Positions 203-64,000 are shown, counted from the first letter of the stretch. The stretch: DNA of 64,000 nt from a virus (IMGVR_UViG_3300032213_001531:40994-104993), one strand, 5' to 3'. Notes: generated by a model from the letters alone, not told the origin. Program-made: numbers and translations.

Positions 203-447
203 TCGCTTTGTCTCTTCCCTACGTATATTCCGTGTACTGTTAGTGCAAAATAAAAACTGTTCTTCTTCTCATTATAGTCTATCGTAAAATCTGGCTCAAT
301 GTCAAACCTTGGGACATATCCACTCATTCTCATTTCTGAGACAACAAGTCTAATATATTCAATCTTAAGTCTGCCAATAGACGATTCATCGTGGATTAAT
401 CCATCCAGATAAAACTTCTTAATAGGTTTATGGTGATAGTTTGCCAT
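121..447 (-). CDS. hypothetical protein
   Basis: 108-aa ORF; TATAAT 5 nt upstream of ATG. Confidence 0.75.
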   Translation of the reverse strand: MANYHHKPIKKFYLDGLIHDESSIGRLKIEYIRLVVSEMRMSGYVPRFDIEPDFTIDYNEKKNSFYFALTVHGIYVGKRQSEWISGIDGTKAIHIQKNKSKESSQAQV

Positions 448-2212: not shown

Positions 2213-2755
2213 TTAAATAGACTCATTCCAAATTGGAATAAACCTTCCATCATCAGTTCTCGTATATGTAAGTATACCTTCTCCCATACGCCTTGTCAAC
2301 TCTTGCTTGGTGGGAGTAATATCATTTGTTATTAAATTATCTTTTCTTGGTCTTCCAATATGGTTCATTGCAAGTATATCACGTATCTCTTTTACTTGCG
2401 ATTCTGAGTAATATGATCTGACTTGCCATCCTCTTGCCCCGCCTTTTTGTGAGCCAGTTGGAAAGGGAATCAATCCTTTTTTCATTAATCTTGGCATATA
2501 TTTTTTATGACGATTAACTAAATCAGCAGTCTCCCCAACGGTGTATGCCTTCTCTCTTTTCTTTTTAAACTCACTAATTAAACAACTTTCAATCTGATCT
2601 TTTGTAATATTATAAACAGACATAATACCATTAGACTTATTAAAGTGATGTACTCTTACTAAATCCCCATTTAAAAACCAAACTTTTTTATTGCCAGGGA
2701 TTATAGGGAGGAGATTGTAGCCTTCGCTCTCTGTTGTTCCTTTTTTAGTAGCCAT
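2213..2755 (-). CDS. MerR-like helix-turn-helix DNA-binding protein
   Basis: YTVGETADLVNRHKKYMPRLMKKGLIP...RSYYSESQV resembles MerR/excisionase wHTH. Confidence 0.7.
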   Translation of the reverse strand: MATKKGTTESEGYNLLPIIPGNKKVWFLNGDLVRVHHFNKSNGIMSVYNITKDQIESCLISEFKKKREKAYTVGETADLVNRHKKYMPRLMKKGLIPFPTGSQKGGARGWQVRSYYSESQVKEIRDILAMNHIGRPRKDNLITNDITPTKQELTRRMGEGILTYTRTDDGRFIPIWNESI

Positions 2756-22720: not shown

Positions 22721-22744
22721 TAATATAGTATACCAAAAACAAAA

Positions 22745-22772
22745 TTGCCCCGCATCCTAAGATGAAGGGCAA
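22745..22772 (-). terminator. intrinsic terminator after major tail gene
   Basis: TTGCCC..CATC/GATG..GGGCAA stem followed by TTTTGTTTTT on minus strand. Confidence 0.7.
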
Positions 22773-45227: not shown

Positions 45228-45284
45228 TATTGCTCCCTTTTGTATACTATAAGTATACCATTTAGATTTTTGTTTGTCAAGATG

Positions 45285-52676: not shown

Positions 52677-52706
52677 TTGACTTTGACAATAAAATTATGC
52701 TATACT
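52677..52706 (+). promoter_or_regulatory. sigma70-type promoter for lytic transglycosylase
   Basis: TTGACT-18 nt-TATACT with TG extension; AAGGAGG RBS downstream. Confidence 0.7.
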
Positions 52707-57904: not shown

Positions 57905-58125
57905 ATCTAAATTATATCATATCGGACATCATATATATTAAAGTAACAAAACGTTATAATAATAGATAACAAAAAGTTATAAAGTAAATCGTTATAAAAT
58001 TGTTATTTGTCAAGGTATAAAAATTAAGAAATCAGGACTGTAATAGTGTATACTAAATATATATAAGAAAAAAGAACTATCTTTAAAGGTTAATATTTAT
58101 ATATCTTATATATTATATATAGTAG

Positions 58126-61668: not shown

Positions 61669-61806
61669 TTAGTTTGAACGATATTGAGGAGTATATTCTC
61701 CGTCAATTTCTATTGAGCAAGGGGCACAGCCGTAGCCGTCACAGATGTCATCATTTTCAATAGCCCAGCAGATTTCATCTGTTGCGTAGATTGTGTTAGT
61801 GTTCAT
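61669..61806 (-). CDS. 45-aa Cys-containing early protein
   Basis: MNTNTIYATDEICW...CDGYGCAPC; GAAAGG RBS; own promoter. Confidence 0.7.
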   Translation of the reverse strand: MNTNTIYATDEICWAIENDDICDGYGCAPCSIEIDGEYTPQYRSN

Positions 61807-61838
61807 TTTTGAACCTTTCTTGTTGTTGTTATAATGGA

Positions 61839-61860
61839 AGTATAGCAGGGGGTACTGACA
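61839..61860 (-). promoter_or_regulatory. early promoter TGTCAG-N7-TGC-TATACT
   Basis: One of five copies with identical spacing. Confidence 0.8.
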
Positions 61861-61892
61861 TTTTTACCCCTTTTGGGGGTGTGTCTGATGTG

Positions 61893-62060
61893 TTACTCGT
61901 CACACTCGCAAGGCTGAGCGTAGTCAAACTCACAGAAATAGCACCCCTGAGCCTGAAAGTGCTTGTCGCAATAGTGACGGAATTGGATCTCGCCACAGTG
62001 GATAAATTGGGTGTTATCAGTTAAATAGTACTGATTAACGGGATATAGGGTAAGTGACAT
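61893..62060 (-). CDS. 55-aa Cys/His-rich early protein
   Basis: MSLTLYP...HCGE...YCDKH...GCYFC...PCECDE; GAAAGGA RBS; own promoter. Confidence 0.7.
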   Translation of the reverse strand: MSLTLYPVNQYYLTDNTQFIHCGEIQFRHYCDKHFQAQGCYFCEFDYAQPCECDE

Positions 62061-62091
62061 TTTTATGTCCTTTCGTTGTTGTTATATGGCA

Positions 62092-62113
62092 AGTGTAGCA
62101 GGTAGCACTGACA
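62092..62113 (-). promoter_or_regulatory. early promoter TGTCAG-N7-TGC-TACACT
   Basis: Repeat copy. Confidence 0.8.
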
Positions 62114-62188
62114 AAAACAACCCGACACGCCGTAATTGTGTAATATTTATATGTGATATACACCACATAAAAAAATGTCGAAAAAAAG

Positions 62189-62197
62189 TTATCCACA
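62189..62197 (+). promoter_or_regulatory. DnaA box (TTATCCACA)
   Basis: Perfect consensus 9-mer in the divergent intergenic region; single copy. Confidence 0.45.
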
Positions 62198-62267
62198 GGG
62201 TGATGTGTATATCCTTGTCAAGCCGACACGCCCTAATAATTATAACAATTTGATAACGATCTAATCA

Positions 62268-62299
62268 TGTGACATGAAACACATGTGACCTACCTCACA
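62268..62299. promoter_or_regulatory. tandem CRP/GlxR-type sites
   Basis: TGTGA-N6-ACACA then perfect TGTGA-N6-TCACA. Confidence 0.7.
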
Positions 62300-62332
62300 A
62301 TGTCCGAATTGTTCTATTTGTACCCCTCAATT

Positions 62333-62354
62333 TGTCAGACCCCTGTGTTAGACT
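62333..62354 (+). promoter_or_regulatory. early promoter TGTCAG-N7-TGT-TAGACT
   Basis: Repeat copy; GAAAGGTGG RBS downstream. Confidence 0.8.
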
Positions 62355-62389
62355 TACAGTATAAAGAAATTAAAGAAAGGTGGTCTAAA

Positions 62390-62563
62390 ATGACTACATT
62401 AACAAAAACACATGAGCATAACCCTATGCTTTCCGCTATCTCAGAGGTATCAGATACCCAATACACTTTCTGCCAAGATTGTGAGCAAAACATTGAGCGT
62501 TACTACTATGATAGTGACCCTGAGCAATTCCCTATGTGGACAGATTGGAAGGTATCTCAATGA
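62390..62563 (+). CDS. early protein with CxxC
   Basis: Start MTTLTKTH after GAAAGG. Confidence 0.7.
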   Translation: MTTLTKTHEHNPMLSAISEVSDTQYTFCQDCEQNIERYYYDSDPEQFPMWTDWKVSQ

Positions 62564-62760
62564 TAGCCCTCTCCCATAATCTATCTAAATGCCTTTCTTG
62601 TAATTGGACAGGTGACTCTTGGGATAATTTCTGCTCAATAGATAAATCTCACCCTACCGTTGAGGCTTGGGCTTGGCTCAATAAGCCTAGTGATGACTAT
62701 CACACTTGGTTTTACACTTATTCGTCTGATTTGTCAGACCCCTCTGCTAAACTTGCTTAA
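62560..62760 (+). CDS. early protein with CxxC
   Basis: ATGA overlap; MIALSHNLSKCLSC. Confidence 0.6.
   Translation: MIALSHNLSKCLSCNWTGDSWDNFCSIDKSHPTVEAWAWLNKPSDDYHTWFYTYSSDLSDPSAKLA
62732..62753 (+). promoter_or_regulatory. early promoter TGTCAG-N7-TGC-TAAACT
   Basis: Repeat copy. Confidence 0.8.
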
Positions 62761-62785
62761 TAACAAAAAGAAAGGTGGTCATAAT

Positions 62786-62965
62786 ATGACTATACTAAAA
62801 ACACAAGAGGTTATAGATAACGCCCTGTTATCCGTACTAGAGCCTCACCTATACGGCAGAGCCTCTACCGCACTTATCCCATGCTCTAATTGTAATGATA
62901 ATTATTTAGAGGTATTTGCTAAAGATAAAAAGTTCACTAAGTTCACATGCGAGGGGTGTAAGTAA
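62786..62965 (+). CDS. early zinc-ribbon protein
   Basis: Start MTILKTQ after GAAAGG; CSNC...CEGC. Confidence 0.7.
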   Translation: MTILKTQEVIDNALLSVLEPHLYGRASTALIPCSNCNDNYLEVFAKDKKFTKFTCEGCK

Positions 62966-63111
62966 TGAATAAATATGAACTAAGAGATTTAGCATTTAGC
63001 CTTGCTAAAGAAAATCATGGAGATCAAAAATATGCTGCGCTCTGGGGTGCTGCTGCTGTTCTACTTTCAGAAAAAGATTTAGAAATTATTGTAAAAGTAA
63101 TGGAGATGTAA
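62965..63111 (+). CDS. 48-aa early protein
   Basis: MNKYELRDLAFSLAKENHGDQKYAALWG...; TAATG-coupled. Confidence 0.7.
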   Translation: MNKYELRDLAFSLAKENHGDQKYAALWGAAAVLLSEKDLEIIVKVMEM

Positions 63112-63114
63112 ATA

Positions 63115-63291
63115 ATGATAACCCTAACCCTAACCTCATATAACGGCAACACTAAGAAAATGCCTTTCTATTCTAAGCAACAGGTACTAGATTTTCTTTC
63201 TGCGTTACCTTCACGCCTTAACAAAAACACATCTCTAAAAGTAGAGTGTGACATCTTAGCAATTAACGGAACTATTAGAGGGGCTAACTAA
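63115..63291 (+). CDS. 58-aa early protein (paralog of 61198..61383)
   Basis: MITLTLTSYNGNTKKMPFYSKQQVLDF... Confidence 0.75.
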   Translation: MITLTLTSYNGNTKKMPFYSKQQVLDFLSALPSRLNKNTSLKVECDILAINGTIRGAN

Positions 63292-63482
63292 TGTTAGATT
63301 TTGATGTCGCTTTTGAAATTAAATCATGGTTTGATGACATGCTAGACGAATCGTATAAGCCTTTTGAAATTGGTAACTTATCTTTTTCTGCCTCACAGAT
63401 TTTGCGAGAGTGTGACCCTGTTGCTTATCACCAATCACTTTTAGATTTTGAGGACGCTATTAGAGAAAATGAAGAGGGGTAA
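63291..63482 (+). CDS. acidic early protein
   Basis: FDDMLDESY...ASQILRECDPVAY. Confidence 0.75.
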   Translation: MLDFDVAFEIKSWFDDMLDESYKPFEIGNLSFSASQILRECDPVAYHQSLLDFEDAIRENEEG

Positions 63483-63484
63483 AA

Positions 63485-63589
63485 ATGGAAATAGATTTAT
63501 TCGGATTTGCTAACGCAATACAATTAGATCATTTAACTAATGAACAACTTTTAGAATTAGAAAAAATACTTAACGGAATTGGAGAATAA
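63485..63589 (+). CDS. 34-aa early protein
   Basis: MEIDLFGFANAIQLDHLTNEQLLELEKILNGIGE; GAGG RBS. Confidence 0.6.
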   Translation: MEIDLFGFANAIQLDHLTNEQLLELEKILNGIGE

Positions 63590-63592
63590 AAA

Positions 63593-63685
63593 ATGGATCT
63601 AACTTTTTTTACTGACGGCAGAGCTTTATTTTTCTTAACTTTATTTTTTGCTTTTCGTTTTTTATATTTACTTGGGAAGGGGTAA
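63593..63685 (+). CDS. 30-aa hydrophobic peptide
   Basis: MDLTFFTDGRALFFLTLFFAFRFLYLLGKG; GGAG RBS. Confidence 0.55.
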   Translation: MDLTFFTDGRALFFLTLFFAFRFLYLLGKG

Positions 63686-63758
63686 ATAAAATTTTCGAAA
63701 AAACCGACACGCCGATAAGTTTAAGATTGTTATAAAATTGTTATAAAGTTTACAATTA

Positions 63759-63774
63759 TGTGATAATGATCACA
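63759..63774. promoter_or_regulatory. CRP/GlxR-type site
   Basis: Perfect TGTGA-TAATGA-TCACA. Confidence 0.7.
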
Positions 63775-63822
63775 AAAATAAATATCAAAATGTCCGAATT
63801 GTTAGCATTTCTAATTTGATAA

Positions 63823-63844
63823 TGTCAGTCTAATCTGCTAAACT
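63823..63844 (+). promoter_or_regulatory. early promoter TGTCAG-N7-TGC-TAAACT
   Basis: Repeat copy; GAAAGG RBS downstream. Confidence 0.8.
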
Positions 63845-63876
63845 TACATAGTAAGCAATTAAACGAAAGGTCAAAA

Positions 63877-63990
63877 ATGACACTAGAGGAATATAAGGCG
63901 CTAATACAGGCGCAACGCAACGCAAGCAAGGCTCAGGCTTTGTCAGTCCTATCCGCTACAATTAAAGAAATAAAGAAAGGTGACAACTAA
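63877..63990 (+). CDS. 37-aa early protein
   Basis: MTLEEYKALIQAQRNASKAQALSVLSATIKEIKKGDN; next ATG overlaps the stop. Confidence 0.65.
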   Translation: MTLEEYKALIQAQRNASKAQALSVLSATIKEIKKGDN

Positions 63991-64000
63991 TGTCAGCAAA

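What the first reader, a model, noticed from the sequence alone, without database searches (positions are those of the whole stretch)
61839..63844. Five-copy early promoter with an upstream platform of host transcription-factor-like sites
Seen: TGTCAG-N7-TGY-TANACT occurs five times with identical spacing (minus 61839-61860, 62092-62113; plus 62333-62354, 62732-62753, 63823-63844). Two copies share an ordered upstream array: CCGACACGCC (62223, 63704; also 62122), then an 11-bp-spaced GTTAT pair (62242-62257 reversed; 63729-63744), then TGTGA-N6-TCACA (62284, 63759), then ATGTCCGAATTGTT (62300, 63790) exactly 33 bp before TGTCAG. Near-consensus CRP sites are also at 61889, 62152 and 62268. Established: TGTGA-N6-TCACA is the CRP/GlxR consensus, GACAC is the WhiA motif, and 11-bp direct repeats typify OmpR-family sites. 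Inference: early transcription integrates host cAMP/carbon, nutrient and cell-cycle signals.
Basis: partly seen in the sequence, partly recalled or inferred. Interest (0 to 1): 0.75.

Follow-up and report, generated by a model that had tools for sequence, protein, structure and literature searches.

The report
Phage promoters copying host PafBC promoters
An uncultured 105-kb lake phage of actinobacteria starts its block of tiny genes from five or six promoters built like the host promoters that PafBC, the host's single-stranded-DNA alarm protein, switches on. Each one also has a CRP-type site upstream, so the phage probably wires these genes to host alarm and nutrient signals, though nothing has been tested at the bench.

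Summary
TGTCAG-N7-TGY-TANACT occurs exactly five times (0.01 expected), and these are the only copies in the whole 105-kb phage record. Each lies 22-31 nt upstream of a ribosome-binding site and the ATG of a small ORF, in a divergent small-gene block.

It is the 22-nt actinobacterial PafBC-dependent (RecA-NDp) promoter, tGTCgg-N10-tA-N3-T: a "-26 element" at -28..-23, a -10 box and no -35, read by "sigma adaptation" (PMC8635444).

Streamlined actinobacterial genomes that are candidate hosts carry pafBC, with both DNA-reading arginines of PafB kept. They use the same motif at recA, a LysM/ChiZ-like gene and carD, often next to LexA boxes. The phage has no WYL, PafB or sigma gene.

The upstream "platform" is also real.
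- CRP-type palindromes are 11-fold enriched and sit at discrete distances (-64.5, -69.5, -74.5, -85).
- A (C)GACACGCC box or ATGTCCGAATTGTT occupies -61..-46.
- What binds these sites is untested. The OmpR reading is weak.

About 30 diverse uncultured phage contigs share the promoter type. Five cultured actinophages do not.

This scan has already reported the same PafBC, CRP and WhiA reading on other DNA (at least 83 genomes). I reached the PafBC reading independently before looking. I found no paper describing it.

The parts
61839..61860 (-). Promoter E, PafBC type. TGTCAG at 61855-61860, TG at 61846-61847, -10 TATACT at 61839-61844, predicted start at 61832. Drives the 45-aa ORF 61669-61806 and the small ORFs to its left.
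   Evidence: The geometry equals tGTCgg-N10-tA-N3-T. There is no -35: the hexamer at the 17-bp position is GTAAAA.
62092..62113 (-). Promoter D, PafBC type (TGTCAGTGCTACCTGCTACACT). Predicted start at 62085. Drives the 55-aa ORF 61893-62060.
62333..62354 (+). Promoter A, PafBC type (TGTCAGACCCCTGTGTTAGACT). Predicted start at 62361. Drives the 57-aa ORF 62390-62563 and the overlapping ORF 62560-62760.
   Evidence: The core is invariant in six relatives while the palindrome centres upstream vary.
62732..62753 (+). Promoter B, PafBC type, embedded in the 3' end of ORF 62560-62760. Predicted start at 62760. Drives ORF 62786-62965 and four further small ORFs.
63823..63844 (+). Promoter C, PafBC type (TGTCAGTCTAATCTGCTAAACT). 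It is the only one with a -35-like hexamer (TTGATA, 17-bp spacer). Predicted start at 63851. Drives ORF 63877-63990.
63941..63962 (+). Candidate sixth promoter of the same geometry without the TG extension (TGTCAGTCCTATCCGCTACAAT), 28 nt before the ATG at 63991.
   Evidence: The identical site is present in relative L040.
61889..61904 (.). CRP-type palindrome TGTGTTACTCGTCACA, centred at -64.5 from the predicted start of promoter E.
62152..62167 (.). CRP-type palindrome TGTGATATACACCACA, centred at -74.5 from the predicted start of promoter D.
62268..62299 (.). Two abutting CRP-type palindromes, TGTGACATGAAACACA and TGTGACCTACCTCACA, centred at -85.5 and -69.5 from the predicted start of promoter A.
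   Evidence: In relatives the half-sites are conserved and the centres vary.
62689..62704 (.). CRP-type palindrome AGTGATGACTATCACA, centred at -63.5 from the predicted start of promoter B. It lies inside a coding region.
63759..63774 (.). Perfect CRP-type palindrome TGTGATAATGATCACA, centred at -84.5 from the predicted start of promoter C.
62122..62131 (+). CCGACACGCC box (GACAC core), 9 nt upstream of promoter D on the opposite strand.
   Evidence: The opposite-strand class, centred near -41, recurs 9 times in relatives.
62223..62232 (+). CCGACACGCC box at the far end of the promoter A cassette, preceded by TTGTCAAG.
63704..63713 (+). CCGACACGCC box at the far end of the promoter C cassette.
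61878..61887 (-). Degenerate box CAGACACACC starting 27 nt upstream of the TGTCAG of promoter E. This is the offset at which relatives carry nCGACACGCC.
62300..62313 (+). ATGTCCGAATTGTT box, 33 nt before the TGTCAG of promoter A (-61..-48).
63790..63803 (+). ATGTCCGAATTGTT box, 33 nt before the TGTCAG of promoter C.
62242..62257 (-). GTTAT-N6-GTTAT pair centred near -111.5 from the predicted start of promoter A. Binder unknown.
63729..63744 (+). GTTAT-N6-GTTAT pair centred near -114.5 from the predicted start of promoter C. Binder unknown.

Best explanation
The repeats are promoters of the actinobacterial PafBC-dependent (RecA-NDp) class. Each has a '-26 element' TGTCAG at -28..-23, exactly 10 bp upstream of a -10 box TAnAcT that carries a TG extension, and no usable -35.

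Proposed mechanism (inferred, not shown):
- The host sigma-A RNA polymerase reads these promoters with host PafBC wedged between sigma region 4 and the DNA ('sigma adaptation').
- PafBC becomes active when it binds single-stranded DNA, which phage entry, nuclease attack or host-DNA breakdown would produce.
- The strong extended -10 probably gives some basal firing without PafBC.
- Upstream, each promoter has a CRP-type palindrome on a preferred face or distance, probably a docking site for the host CRP or another dimeric regulator. A second box, (C)GACACGCC or ATGTCCGAATTGTT, lies in the -61..-46 zone and its binder is unknown.

Together these cassettes drive divergent operons of very small genes, most of unknown function. 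They form a regulatory class apart from the phage's canonical -35/-10 promoters.
For: Geometry:
- The published in vivo PafBC consensus is the 22-nt tGTCgg(N10)tA(N3)T. The PafB HTH reads -23..-28, and no -35 is present (PMC8635444). The phage motif TGTCAG-N10-TAnAcT fits it base for base.
- The spacing is rigid. In 286 sites anchored on the extended -10 alone, 81 have TGTCAG at exactly that offset and none at neighbouring offsets.
- Only one of the five copies scores as a canonical sigma-70-type promoter.
- A purine is present at the predicted start in all five copies. Across relatives it is an A in 73 of 94 sites, followed by an A-rich leader. In a wider set of 186 sites, 154 have SD plus a start codon within 60 nt.

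Host side:
- Among 401 sampled Actinomycetia genomes, the strict motif hit almost only 1.3-1.5 Mb genomes, once each, at a conserved site upstream of carD.
- Five such genomes have tandem WYL genes that match PafB and PafC of PDB 7P5X (E 1e-35 and 6e-28). PafB keeps R46 and R50, the residues that read the GTC triplet.
- TGTCRG-N10-TAnnnT sits upstream of their recA, a LysM/ChiZ-like gene, a nuclease gene next to pafBC, and others. LexA boxes lie immediately downstream at recA, the LysM gene and a third gene.

Phage side:
- The phage has no WYL, PafB/PafC, sigma-70 or phage-RNAP hit and no LexA box.
- It has a separate class of canonical TTGAC[AT]-N16-18-TAnA[ACT]T promoters, 22 observed against 3.8 expected.

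Spread:
- About 31 of 119 viral contigs fetched by the pattern hold 2-10 copies. Their protein identity to this phage ranges from 85% to none.

CRP-type sites:
- Density is 5.5 per kb in the 130 nt upstream of the promoters against 0.49 per kb overall. Centres peak at -64.5, -69.5, -74.5 and -85 in 77 promoter clusters.
Against: - There are no transcription or binding data. The host is uncultured and not identified, so the five genomes used are only candidate hosts.
- A lytic phage that depends on a damage-activated factor for its first genes is paradoxical. The small-gene block may not be the earliest class.
- The bases after TGTCAG differ from most host sites: phage A/T-C-C-C-C, host mostly TGG.
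- Sites in relatives were collected with a pattern that already required TGTCAG, so their logo does not test that element. Only the anchored count does.
- Candidate-host genomes show no excess of TGTGA-N6-TCACA (0-1 perfect sites; 8-18 one-mismatch sites against 9-19 in the control). The palindrome could therefore belong to a phage-encoded dimer.
- The -69.5 group is half a turn out of phase with the others.
Confidence: 0.7

Rival explanations
1. A phage-encoded, so far unrecognisable factor reads TGTCAG and redirects host RNA polymerase, as T4 MotA/AsiA do at middle promoters. On this reading the block is a middle class and host PafBC is irrelevant or is mimicked.
For: - The layout (a box about 10-12 bp upstream of the -10, no -35) is also that of T4 middle promoters, a parallel drawn in PMC8635444 itself.
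- The phage has canonical promoters that could make such a factor first.
- Most small phage proteins here have no family match.
- The phage encodes a WhiB-like protein. WhiB family proteins bind sigma region 4 (PMC10243135).
Against: - The candidate hosts use the same hexamer at the same spacing at recA and other damage genes, and they encode PafBC with the reading arginines intact.
- The phage has no WYL or PafB/PafC similarity.
- The motif is shared by phages with little or no protein similarity, which fits a host factor better than a phage one.
Confidence: 0.12
2. The repeats are plain extended -10 sigma-A promoters. TGTCAG and the upstream boxes serve mainly to bind and soak up host regulators (a PafBC/CRP decoy array), or as operators for repression, rather than to activate.
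For: - The TG extension and near-consensus -10 are much stronger than in host PafBC promoters. By general knowledge such promoters can work without a -35.
- The site density is high, and the sites would be amplified with phage DNA copy number.
Against: - The absolutely fixed TGTCAG-to--10 spacing is what a factor built into the initiation complex needs. A sponge or an independent operator does not need it.
- The asymmetric 6-bp element is unlike dimeric operators.
- The CRP-type sites lie at -64 to -85, which are activator-like positions that do not overlap the core promoter.
Confidence: 0.1
3. One reading: an ordinary early promoter whose regulation comes from an upstream platform for host CRP, WhiA/WhiB and an OmpR-family regulator, integrating carbon, nutrient and cell-cycle signals.
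For: - The CRP-type sites are real, enriched and positioned.
- The host CRP helix is of the GASRETVNKALADF type.
- GACAC is the published WhiA motif and can lie on either strand.
- The host has WhiA and the phage has WhiB.
Against: - It leaves the most conserved element, TGTCAG at -28..-23, unexplained.
- The 9-mer CGACACGCC is not enriched in candidate-host genomes (3-6 copies against 5-13 in the control).
- GTTAT pairs occur upstream of few promoters and without a fixed position outside homologous cassettes. The identical 16-mer also lies in an unrelated AT-rich spacer.
- No OmpR-type evidence could be obtained.
Confidence: 0.15
4. The repeats are sigma-54 type -24/-12 promoters (TGGCAC-N5-TTGC) with upstream enhancer sites.
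For: There is a superficial resemblance between TGTCAG-N7-TGC and TGGCAC-N5-TTGC, with activator-like sites 60-140 bp upstream.
Against: - The invariant GG is GT here.
- The spacing is one base too long.
- The conserved TAnAcT right after TGC is a sigma-70-family -10.
- Actinobacteria are not known to have sigma-54 (general knowledge, not tested here).
Confidence: 0.01

Closest known systems
PafBC-dependent (RecA-NDp, recA P1-type) promoters of Mycobacterium and other Actinobacteria, read by 'sigma adaptation' (Mueller et al. 2021, PMC8635444; Schilling et al. 2025, PMC11804915)
   Same: - The same 22-nt layout, tGTCgg-N10-tA-N3-T.
- The GTC triplet at the same place (-28..-23).
- A canonical -10 and no -35.
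- The same motif at recA and other damage genes in the candidate hosts, which encode PafB/PafC with the DNA-reading arginines.
   Different: - These promoters lie on a phage, in arrays of 5 to more than 10, heading operons of tiny genes rather than repair genes.
- The hexamer is almost always TGTCAG rather than TGTCGG.
- There is an added TG extension and a near-consensus -10.
- There are no LexA boxes.
- CRP-type and other boxes lie at fixed places upstream.
- Dependence on PafBC is untested.
T4 middle promoters (MotA box at -30 plus -10, used through AsiA/MotA 'sigma appropriation')
   Same: - A phage promoter class with a specific box about 10-12 bp upstream of the -10 in place of a -35.
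- It is read by host RNAP with an adaptor at sigma region 4.
   Different: - In T4 the adaptor proteins are phage-encoded and remodel sigma.
- Here no phage adaptor is recognisable, and the box is identical to a host regulon's own element.
Class I CRP(CAP)-dependent promoters of E. coli (sites near -61.5, -71.5, -82.5, -92.5) and actinobacterial Crp/GlxR sites
   Same: - A 16-bp TGTGA-N6-TCACA palindrome upstream of the core promoter.
- Discrete distances about one helical turn apart (-64.5, -74.5, -85).
   Different: - The distances are shifted by 2-3 bp, and there is an out-of-phase group at -69.5.
- The palindrome is combined with a PafBC-type core.
- The binder is not identified.
- Candidate-host genomes show no excess of such sites.
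WhiA/WhiB co-activated sigma-A promoters (S. venezuelae sepX; Lilic et al. 2023, PMC10243135)
   Same: - A GACAC core upstream of the -35 zone, on either strand.
- The host has WhiA and the phage encodes a WhiB-like protein.
   Different: - The conserved box is longer, (C)GACACGCC.
- These promoters have no -35.
- PafBC would occupy the sigma region 4 surface that WhiB uses.
- No binding evidence exists.
Bacillus phage phi29 promoters carrying host Spo0A boxes (from memory, not checked here)
   Same: A lytic phage that places binding sites for a host global regulator at its early promoters, so that its development follows host state.
   Different: - In phi29 the host factor represses canonical promoters.
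- Here the host factor would be a required part of promoter recognition.

Membership tests
PafBC-dependent (RecA-NDp) promoter | 22-nt bipartite motif tGTCgg-N10-tA-N3-T with fixed spacing | tested here: met
   All five copies, plus the sixth at 63941, are TGTCAG-N10-TAnnnT. The motif definition comes from PMC8635444. The spacing is invariant in 81 of 81 sites anchored on the extended -10.
PafBC-dependent (RecA-NDp) promoter | Conserved GTC triplet at -27..-25, read by PafB R46/R50 | tested here: met
   GTC is present in every copy. With the -10 at -12..-7 the hexamer falls at -28..-23. The candidate-host PafB aligns to 7P5X PafB with both arginines kept in RMFERDK.
PafBC-dependent (RecA-NDp) promoter | No -35 element | tested here: met
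   The hexamers at the 17-bp position are CTCAAT, TCTGAT, TTGTTT, GTAAAA and TTGATA. Only the last scores in the sigma-70 scan. Across 94 sites there is only a weak TtgAAA trend.
PafBC-dependent (RecA-NDp) promoter | A host that encodes PafB and PafC and uses the motif at DNA-damage genes | tested here: met
   Tandem WYL genes are present in 5 of 5 candidate-host genomes and match PafB and PafC of 7P5X. The motif lies upstream of recA, a LysM/ChiZ-like gene and carD, with LexA boxes alongside some. Caveat: these genomes are candidate hosts, not proven hosts.
PafBC-dependent (RecA-NDp) promoter | Transcription depends on PafBC activated by ssDNA | not testable with these tools
   This needs in vitro transcription or reporter assays.
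Class I CRP-dependent promoter | TGTGA-N6-TCACA palindrome upstream of the core, on one helical face | tested here: inconclusive
   Six sites with at most one mismatch lie in 2.5 kb. In 77 promoter clusters the centres peak at -64.5, -74.5 and -85 but also at -69.5, with Rayleigh p about 1e-4 to 7e-4.
Class I CRP-dependent promoter | A CRP-family protein of matching specificity is available | tested here: inconclusive
   There is one CRP-family gene per candidate-host genome, with helix GASRETVNKALADF. The host genomes show no excess of the palindrome over the control. No binding test was possible.
WhiA/WhiB-activated promoter | GACAC motif upstream of the -35 zone, bound by the WhiA C-terminal domain | tested here: inconclusive
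   A GACAC core is present in three exact CCGACACGCC boxes and one degenerate box. In relatives it recurs at -51 on the same strand (11 sites) and at -41 on the opposite strand (9 sites). The host has WhiA. CGACACGCC is not enriched in the host. No binding test was possible.
OmpR-family site (direct repeats about 11 bp apart) | Direct-repeat half-sites at one-turn spacing that recur at a fixed position upstream of regulated promoters | tested here: not met
   GTTA-N7-GTTA occurs upstream of 17 of 99 promoters, at scattered positions and in both orientations. The identical 16-mer also lies in a GTTATAA-rich spacer at 57991, away from any such promoter.
Sigma-54 (-24/-12) promoter | GG at -24 and GC at -12, exactly one turn apart | tested here: not met
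   The sequence has GT instead of GG, and the TGC lies one base too far.

The most novel reading that the evidence does not exclude
A large group of uncultured lake phages has turned the host's ssDNA alarm into its own ignition key. The small-gene block would fire only when host PafBC is loaded with ssDNA, and would be tuned by a second host input (cAMP-CRP) and perhaps a third (WhiA with the phage's own WhiB). Each micro-operon would then be a two- or three-input gate that reads host damage, energy and division state. This would be the first virus known to be transcribed by sigma adaptation through a host WYL-domain sensor. The many amplified sites could at the same time drain PafBC from the host's repair regulon.
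Probability: 0.3. Interest if true: 0.8.

Novelty: new variant of a known kind. Interest (0 to 1): 0.62.

Why it matters
PafBC-type promoters are known only as the switch for the actinobacterial DNA-damage regulon. WYL-domain sensors are otherwise linked to anti-phage defence.

A phage that builds whole promoter arrays on that switch would show a virus exploiting the host alarm that its own entry sets off. It would give the sigma-adaptation mechanism a second biological role. It would also offer simple, portable test promoters: 22-nt cores with very strong -10 boxes.

The hosts are probably among the most abundant freshwater bacteria and are hard to grow. Promoter grammar of this kind is therefore one of the few handles on how their phages time infection and sense host state. 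The motif is also a practical marker for assigning uncultured phage contigs to actinobacterial hosts.

Tried and rejected
- Canonical -35 reading of TGTCAG: rejected. The spacer to the -10 is 10 bp, and the true 17-bp position holds no conserved hexamer.
- Sigma-54 reading: rejected (GT in place of GG, spacing off by one).
- Phage-encoded sigma factor, single-subunit RNAP, WYL protein, or PafB/PafC by tblastn: none found. The PF00940 control rang nowhere, so that one search is uninformative.
- Temperate lifestyle with prophage induction through PafBC: no tyrosine integrase was found. Serine integrases were not searched.
- Recent duplication as the cause of the shared upstream array: rejected. 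The blocks recur with different spacers and in non-homologous promoters of distant phages.
- General host promoter: rejected. The strict motif occurs about once per candidate-host genome, and the phage also has canonical promoters.
- phiC31 early promoters (a vague memory): no such motif in phiC31. Streptomyces phages BillNye and Daubenski and mycobacteriophages L5 and TM4 also lack arrays.
- blastn of the region against cultured phages: no match.
- WhiB-based search for host genomes returned only phage-like contigs binned into unrelated MAGs. One of them served only as a taxonomic anchor.
- Nine literature searches found no paper on phage promoters of this type. A 2025 ACS Infect Dis paper on pafBC and mycobacteriophage resistance is cited in PMC12848934 but could not be read.
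- The position of GACAC in the sepX promoter could not be extracted from the text, so distances were not compared.


Full report
**What the DNA is.** The window is the last 64 kb of a single 104,993-bp IMG/VR virus record (36.5% GC, estimated 97% complete, no end repeats).
- It encodes a portal, a protease, a capsid protein about 44% identical to that of Streptomyces phages, tail fibres, RNR and a DnaB-type helicase.
- It encodes a WhiB-like protein, which points to an actinobacterial host.
- No tyrosine integrase was found.
- The finding lies in a divergent block of very small ORFs at the right end of the contig.

**Observation.** TGTCAG-N7-TGY-TANACT occurs five times at exactly the stated places. 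Shuffles expect 0.01 copies, and these are the only copies in the whole record.
- Each copy lies 22-31 nt upstream of a GAAAGG-type ribosome-binding site and the ATG of a 37-59-aa ORF. Two point left and three point right.
- I add the following:
  - a sixth CRP-type site at 62689;
  - a sixth promoter-like site without the TG at 63941;
  - a degenerate GACAC box upstream of the leftmost promoter.

**What the core motif is.**
- With TAnAcT as the -10 (-12..-7), the TG falls at -15/-14, an extended -10. TGTCAG falls at -28..-23, only 10 bp from the -10, so it cannot be a -35.
- The hexamers at the proper 17-bp position are not conserved. The generic sigma-70 scan finds only one of the five copies.
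- A scan of IMG/VR with one version of the motif returned 119 loci. About 31 of them hold 2-10 copies.
- Ninety-four unique sites from these loci show the following:
  - an A in 73 of 94 at the position 7 nt after the -10;
  - an A-rich leader;
  - only a faint TtgAAA trend at the -35 position.
- Anchoring on the extended -10 alone removes the selection bias. Of 286 such sites, 81 have TGTCAG at exactly this offset and none at neighbouring offsets.

**The host link.**
- I searched the strict motif in 401 sampled genomes of the class Actinomycetia. Matches were almost confined to 1.3-1.5 Mb genomes. Each had one conserved site, TGTCAG(N)GATGGCTGGTAGAAT, about 25 nt upstream of carD-ispDF-cysS.
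- This recalled the mycobacterial RecA-NDp motif, so I checked the literature. PMC8635444 gives the in vivo PafBC consensus as the 22-nt tGTCgg(N10)tA(N3)T. The PafB HTH reads -23..-28 (the '-26 element'), there is no -35, and PafBC sits between sigma-A region 4 and the DNA ('sigma adaptation'). The phage motif has this geometry exactly.
- Five of the small genomes have tandem WYL genes that match PafB and PafC of PDB 7P5X (E 1e-35 and 6e-28). PafB keeps R46 and R50, which read the GTC triplet.
- In one of these genomes, TGTCRG-N10-TAnnnT sits upstream of several genes:
  - recA;
  - a LysM/ChiZ-like gene;
  - a RecB-like nuclease gene beside pafBC;
  - a DNA methyltransferase gene and others.
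- At recA, the LysM gene and one further gene, a LexA box (TCGAAC-N4-GTTCG) follows immediately. In these bacteria the motif therefore marks the DNA-damage regulon.
- The phage has no WYL, PafB/PafC or sigma homologue and no LexA box.

**A distinct promoter class.** The phage also carries canonical TTGAC[AT]-N16-18-TAnA[ACT]T promoters, 22 observed against 3.8 expected. Six of them are leaderless, mostly in the left arm and the replication region.
- The TGTCAG promoters are therefore a separate regulatory class, not simply the way the host reads all promoters.
- It also means that 'early' is not established. The canonical class could fire first, and the TGTCAG class could fire once PafBC is loaded with ssDNA. 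PafBC responds to ssDNA as short as 6 nt (PMC11804915).
- Compared with host sites, the phage promoters have stronger -10 boxes. In 186 loosely defined sites, 138 have the TG extension and most of the others have TATAAT. That suggests basal activity without PafBC, boosted when PafBC is active. This last step is inference.

**The upstream platform.**
- CRP-type palindromes:
  - Nine with at most one mismatch occur in the genome, six of them in the last 2.5 kb. Each of the five promoters has at least one.
  - Taking the start at motif position 29, the centres lie at -63.5 (B), -64.5 (E), -69.5 and -85.5 (A), -74.5 (D) and -84.5 (C).
  - In relatives, 70 of 99 promoters have such a site within 200 nt upstream.
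  - After collapsing to 77 clusters, the centres pile up at -64.5, -69.5, -74.5 and -85. Density is 5.5 per kb against 0.49 per kb overall.
  - In aligned homologous promoters the half-sites are fixed while the 6-bp centres vary. This is the footprint of a dimeric HTH protein.
- Candidate binder for the palindromes:
  - The candidate hosts have one CRP-family gene with the helix GASRETVNKALADF. From memory this is the helix of mycobacterial CRP and GlxR.
  - Their genomes show no excess of the palindrome. The binder therefore stays open.
- (C)GACACGCC box:
  - In relatives it starts 27 nt before TGTCAG on the same strand (GACAC at about -53..-49), or lies at about -41 on the other strand.
  - ATGTCCGAATTGTT, 33 nt before TGTCAG, is an alternative occupant of the same zone.
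- WhiA reading of that box:
  - GACAC is the published WhiA motif and may lie on either strand at variable distance (PMC10243135).
  - The hosts have WhiA and the phage has only WhiB.
  - CGACACGCC is rarer in the host genomes than its control, with three syntenic intergenic copies. The WhiA reading is possible but unsupported.
- GTTAT pairs: they recur only in homologous cassettes, and the identical 16-mer also lies in a GTTATAA-rich spacer elsewhere. I see no support for an OmpR-type site.

**Spread and novelty.**
- The multi-copy contigs range from 85% protein identity to this phage down to none. They come from lake metagenomes, and WhiB-bearing relatives are mis-binned into unrelated lake MAGs.
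- Close relatives show that this contig stops inside the array. L064 and L075 run 3.3-4.4 kb further and hold more such promoters, and L040 runs about 0.6 kb further.
- Five cultured actinophages (phiC31, BillNye, Daubenski, L5, TM4) have 0-2 hits, no more than the control.
- I found no paper on phage promoters of this type. One unread paper links pafBC to mycobacteriophage resistance.
- After reaching this reading I looked at the scan's own notes. The same PafBC-type promoters, phased CRP boxes and GACACGCC boxes had already been reported on other DNA from at least 83 genomes. Those notes agree with, but are not independent proof of, what I tested here.

**Verdict.**
- The core is best explained as a phage copy of the host PafBC promoter, a new use of a known promoter class, with a genuine but unassigned upstream platform.
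- My confidence that these are promoters is about 0.9. That host PafBC reads them, about 0.7. That host CRP reads the palindromes, about 0.45. That WhiA reads the GACAC boxes, about 0.25.

Noticed in passing
window 63845-64000, with loci L064:5223-9667, L075:4109-7385 and L040:1-565: The contig ends inside the small-gene array. Relatives align up to the last base and then continue: L064 and L075 for 3.3-4.4 kb with four or more further PafBC-type promoters, and L040 for about 0.6 kb. None of this continuation matches the left end of the record, so part of the genome is missing or the block lies at a physical end.
   Followed up: partly
outside the window: G000 22730-22767 (-), locus L154: A hybrid promoter with both a perfect TTGACA -35 and TGTCAG at -26 (TTGACATTGTCAGTGTTTAGGACTATACT), followed 6 nt later by the ATG of a leaderless 60-aa ORF.
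   Followed up: no
window 276-305 (-), 2271-2299 (-), 45252-45280 (-), 52677-52706 (+); outside the window: G000 3853, 6525, 8328, 10328, 11161 (+): A second promoter class of canonical TTGAC[AT]-N16-18-TAnA[ACT]T sites (22 observed against 3.8 expected). Five in the left arm are leaderless, with the ATG 6-7 nt after the -10.
   Followed up: partly
window 62189-62197: A perfect DnaA box (TTATCCACA) lies in the spacer between divergent promoters D and A. A one-mismatch box lies at 61997 (-).
   Followed up: no
window 57950-58015: An AT-rich spacer holds five GTTAT(AA) units, including the exact 16-mer GTTATAAAATTGTTAT of the promoter C cassette, followed by TTGTCAAGG as in the promoter A cassette. 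No PafBC-type promoter is nearby.
   Followed up: no
loci L127-L130 (candidate-host genomes G403, G144, G343, G253): The carD-ispDF-cysS operon of these streamlined actinobacteria has a conserved PafBC-type promoter with a TG extension (TGTCAGnGATGGCTGGTAGAAT). It is the best host match to the phage consensus.
   Followed up: partly
loci L141, L142, L148 (G403): At recA, a LysM/ChiZ-like gene and a 92-aa gene, a LexA box (TCGAAC-N4-GTTCG) lies directly downstream of the PafBC-type -10. Both damage pathways therefore converge on the same promoters.
   Followed up: partly
loci L155-L157 (G403) and syntenic places in G144, G253 and G237: CGACACGCC is rare in the candidate hosts, but three copies are syntenic, intergenic and all on one strand. 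One lies upstream of rpsL-rpsG-fusA.
   Followed up: partly
L131 (G237:424788) and L132 (G165:481917): Two small actinobacterial genomes carry a phage-style site (TGTCAG-N7-TGnTATAAT, the leader TGCTACATACAG..., and a strong SD). This may be an integrated or phage-derived element.
   Followed up: no
loci L122-L126: Contigs encoding a WhiB 66-74% identical to the phage's are binned into MAGs named Polynucleobacter, Chitinophagaceae, Methylococcus, Beijerinckiaceae and Aquiluna. Three of these MAGs hold the promoter motif on a single contig. They look like phage contigs mis-binned into bacterial MAGs.
   Followed up: partly
window 62390-62965: The small ORFs behind promoters A and B carry CxxC pairs (for example CQDC, and CSNC...CEGC), which suggests zinc-ribbon micro-proteins. 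None has a Pfam match.
   Followed up: no
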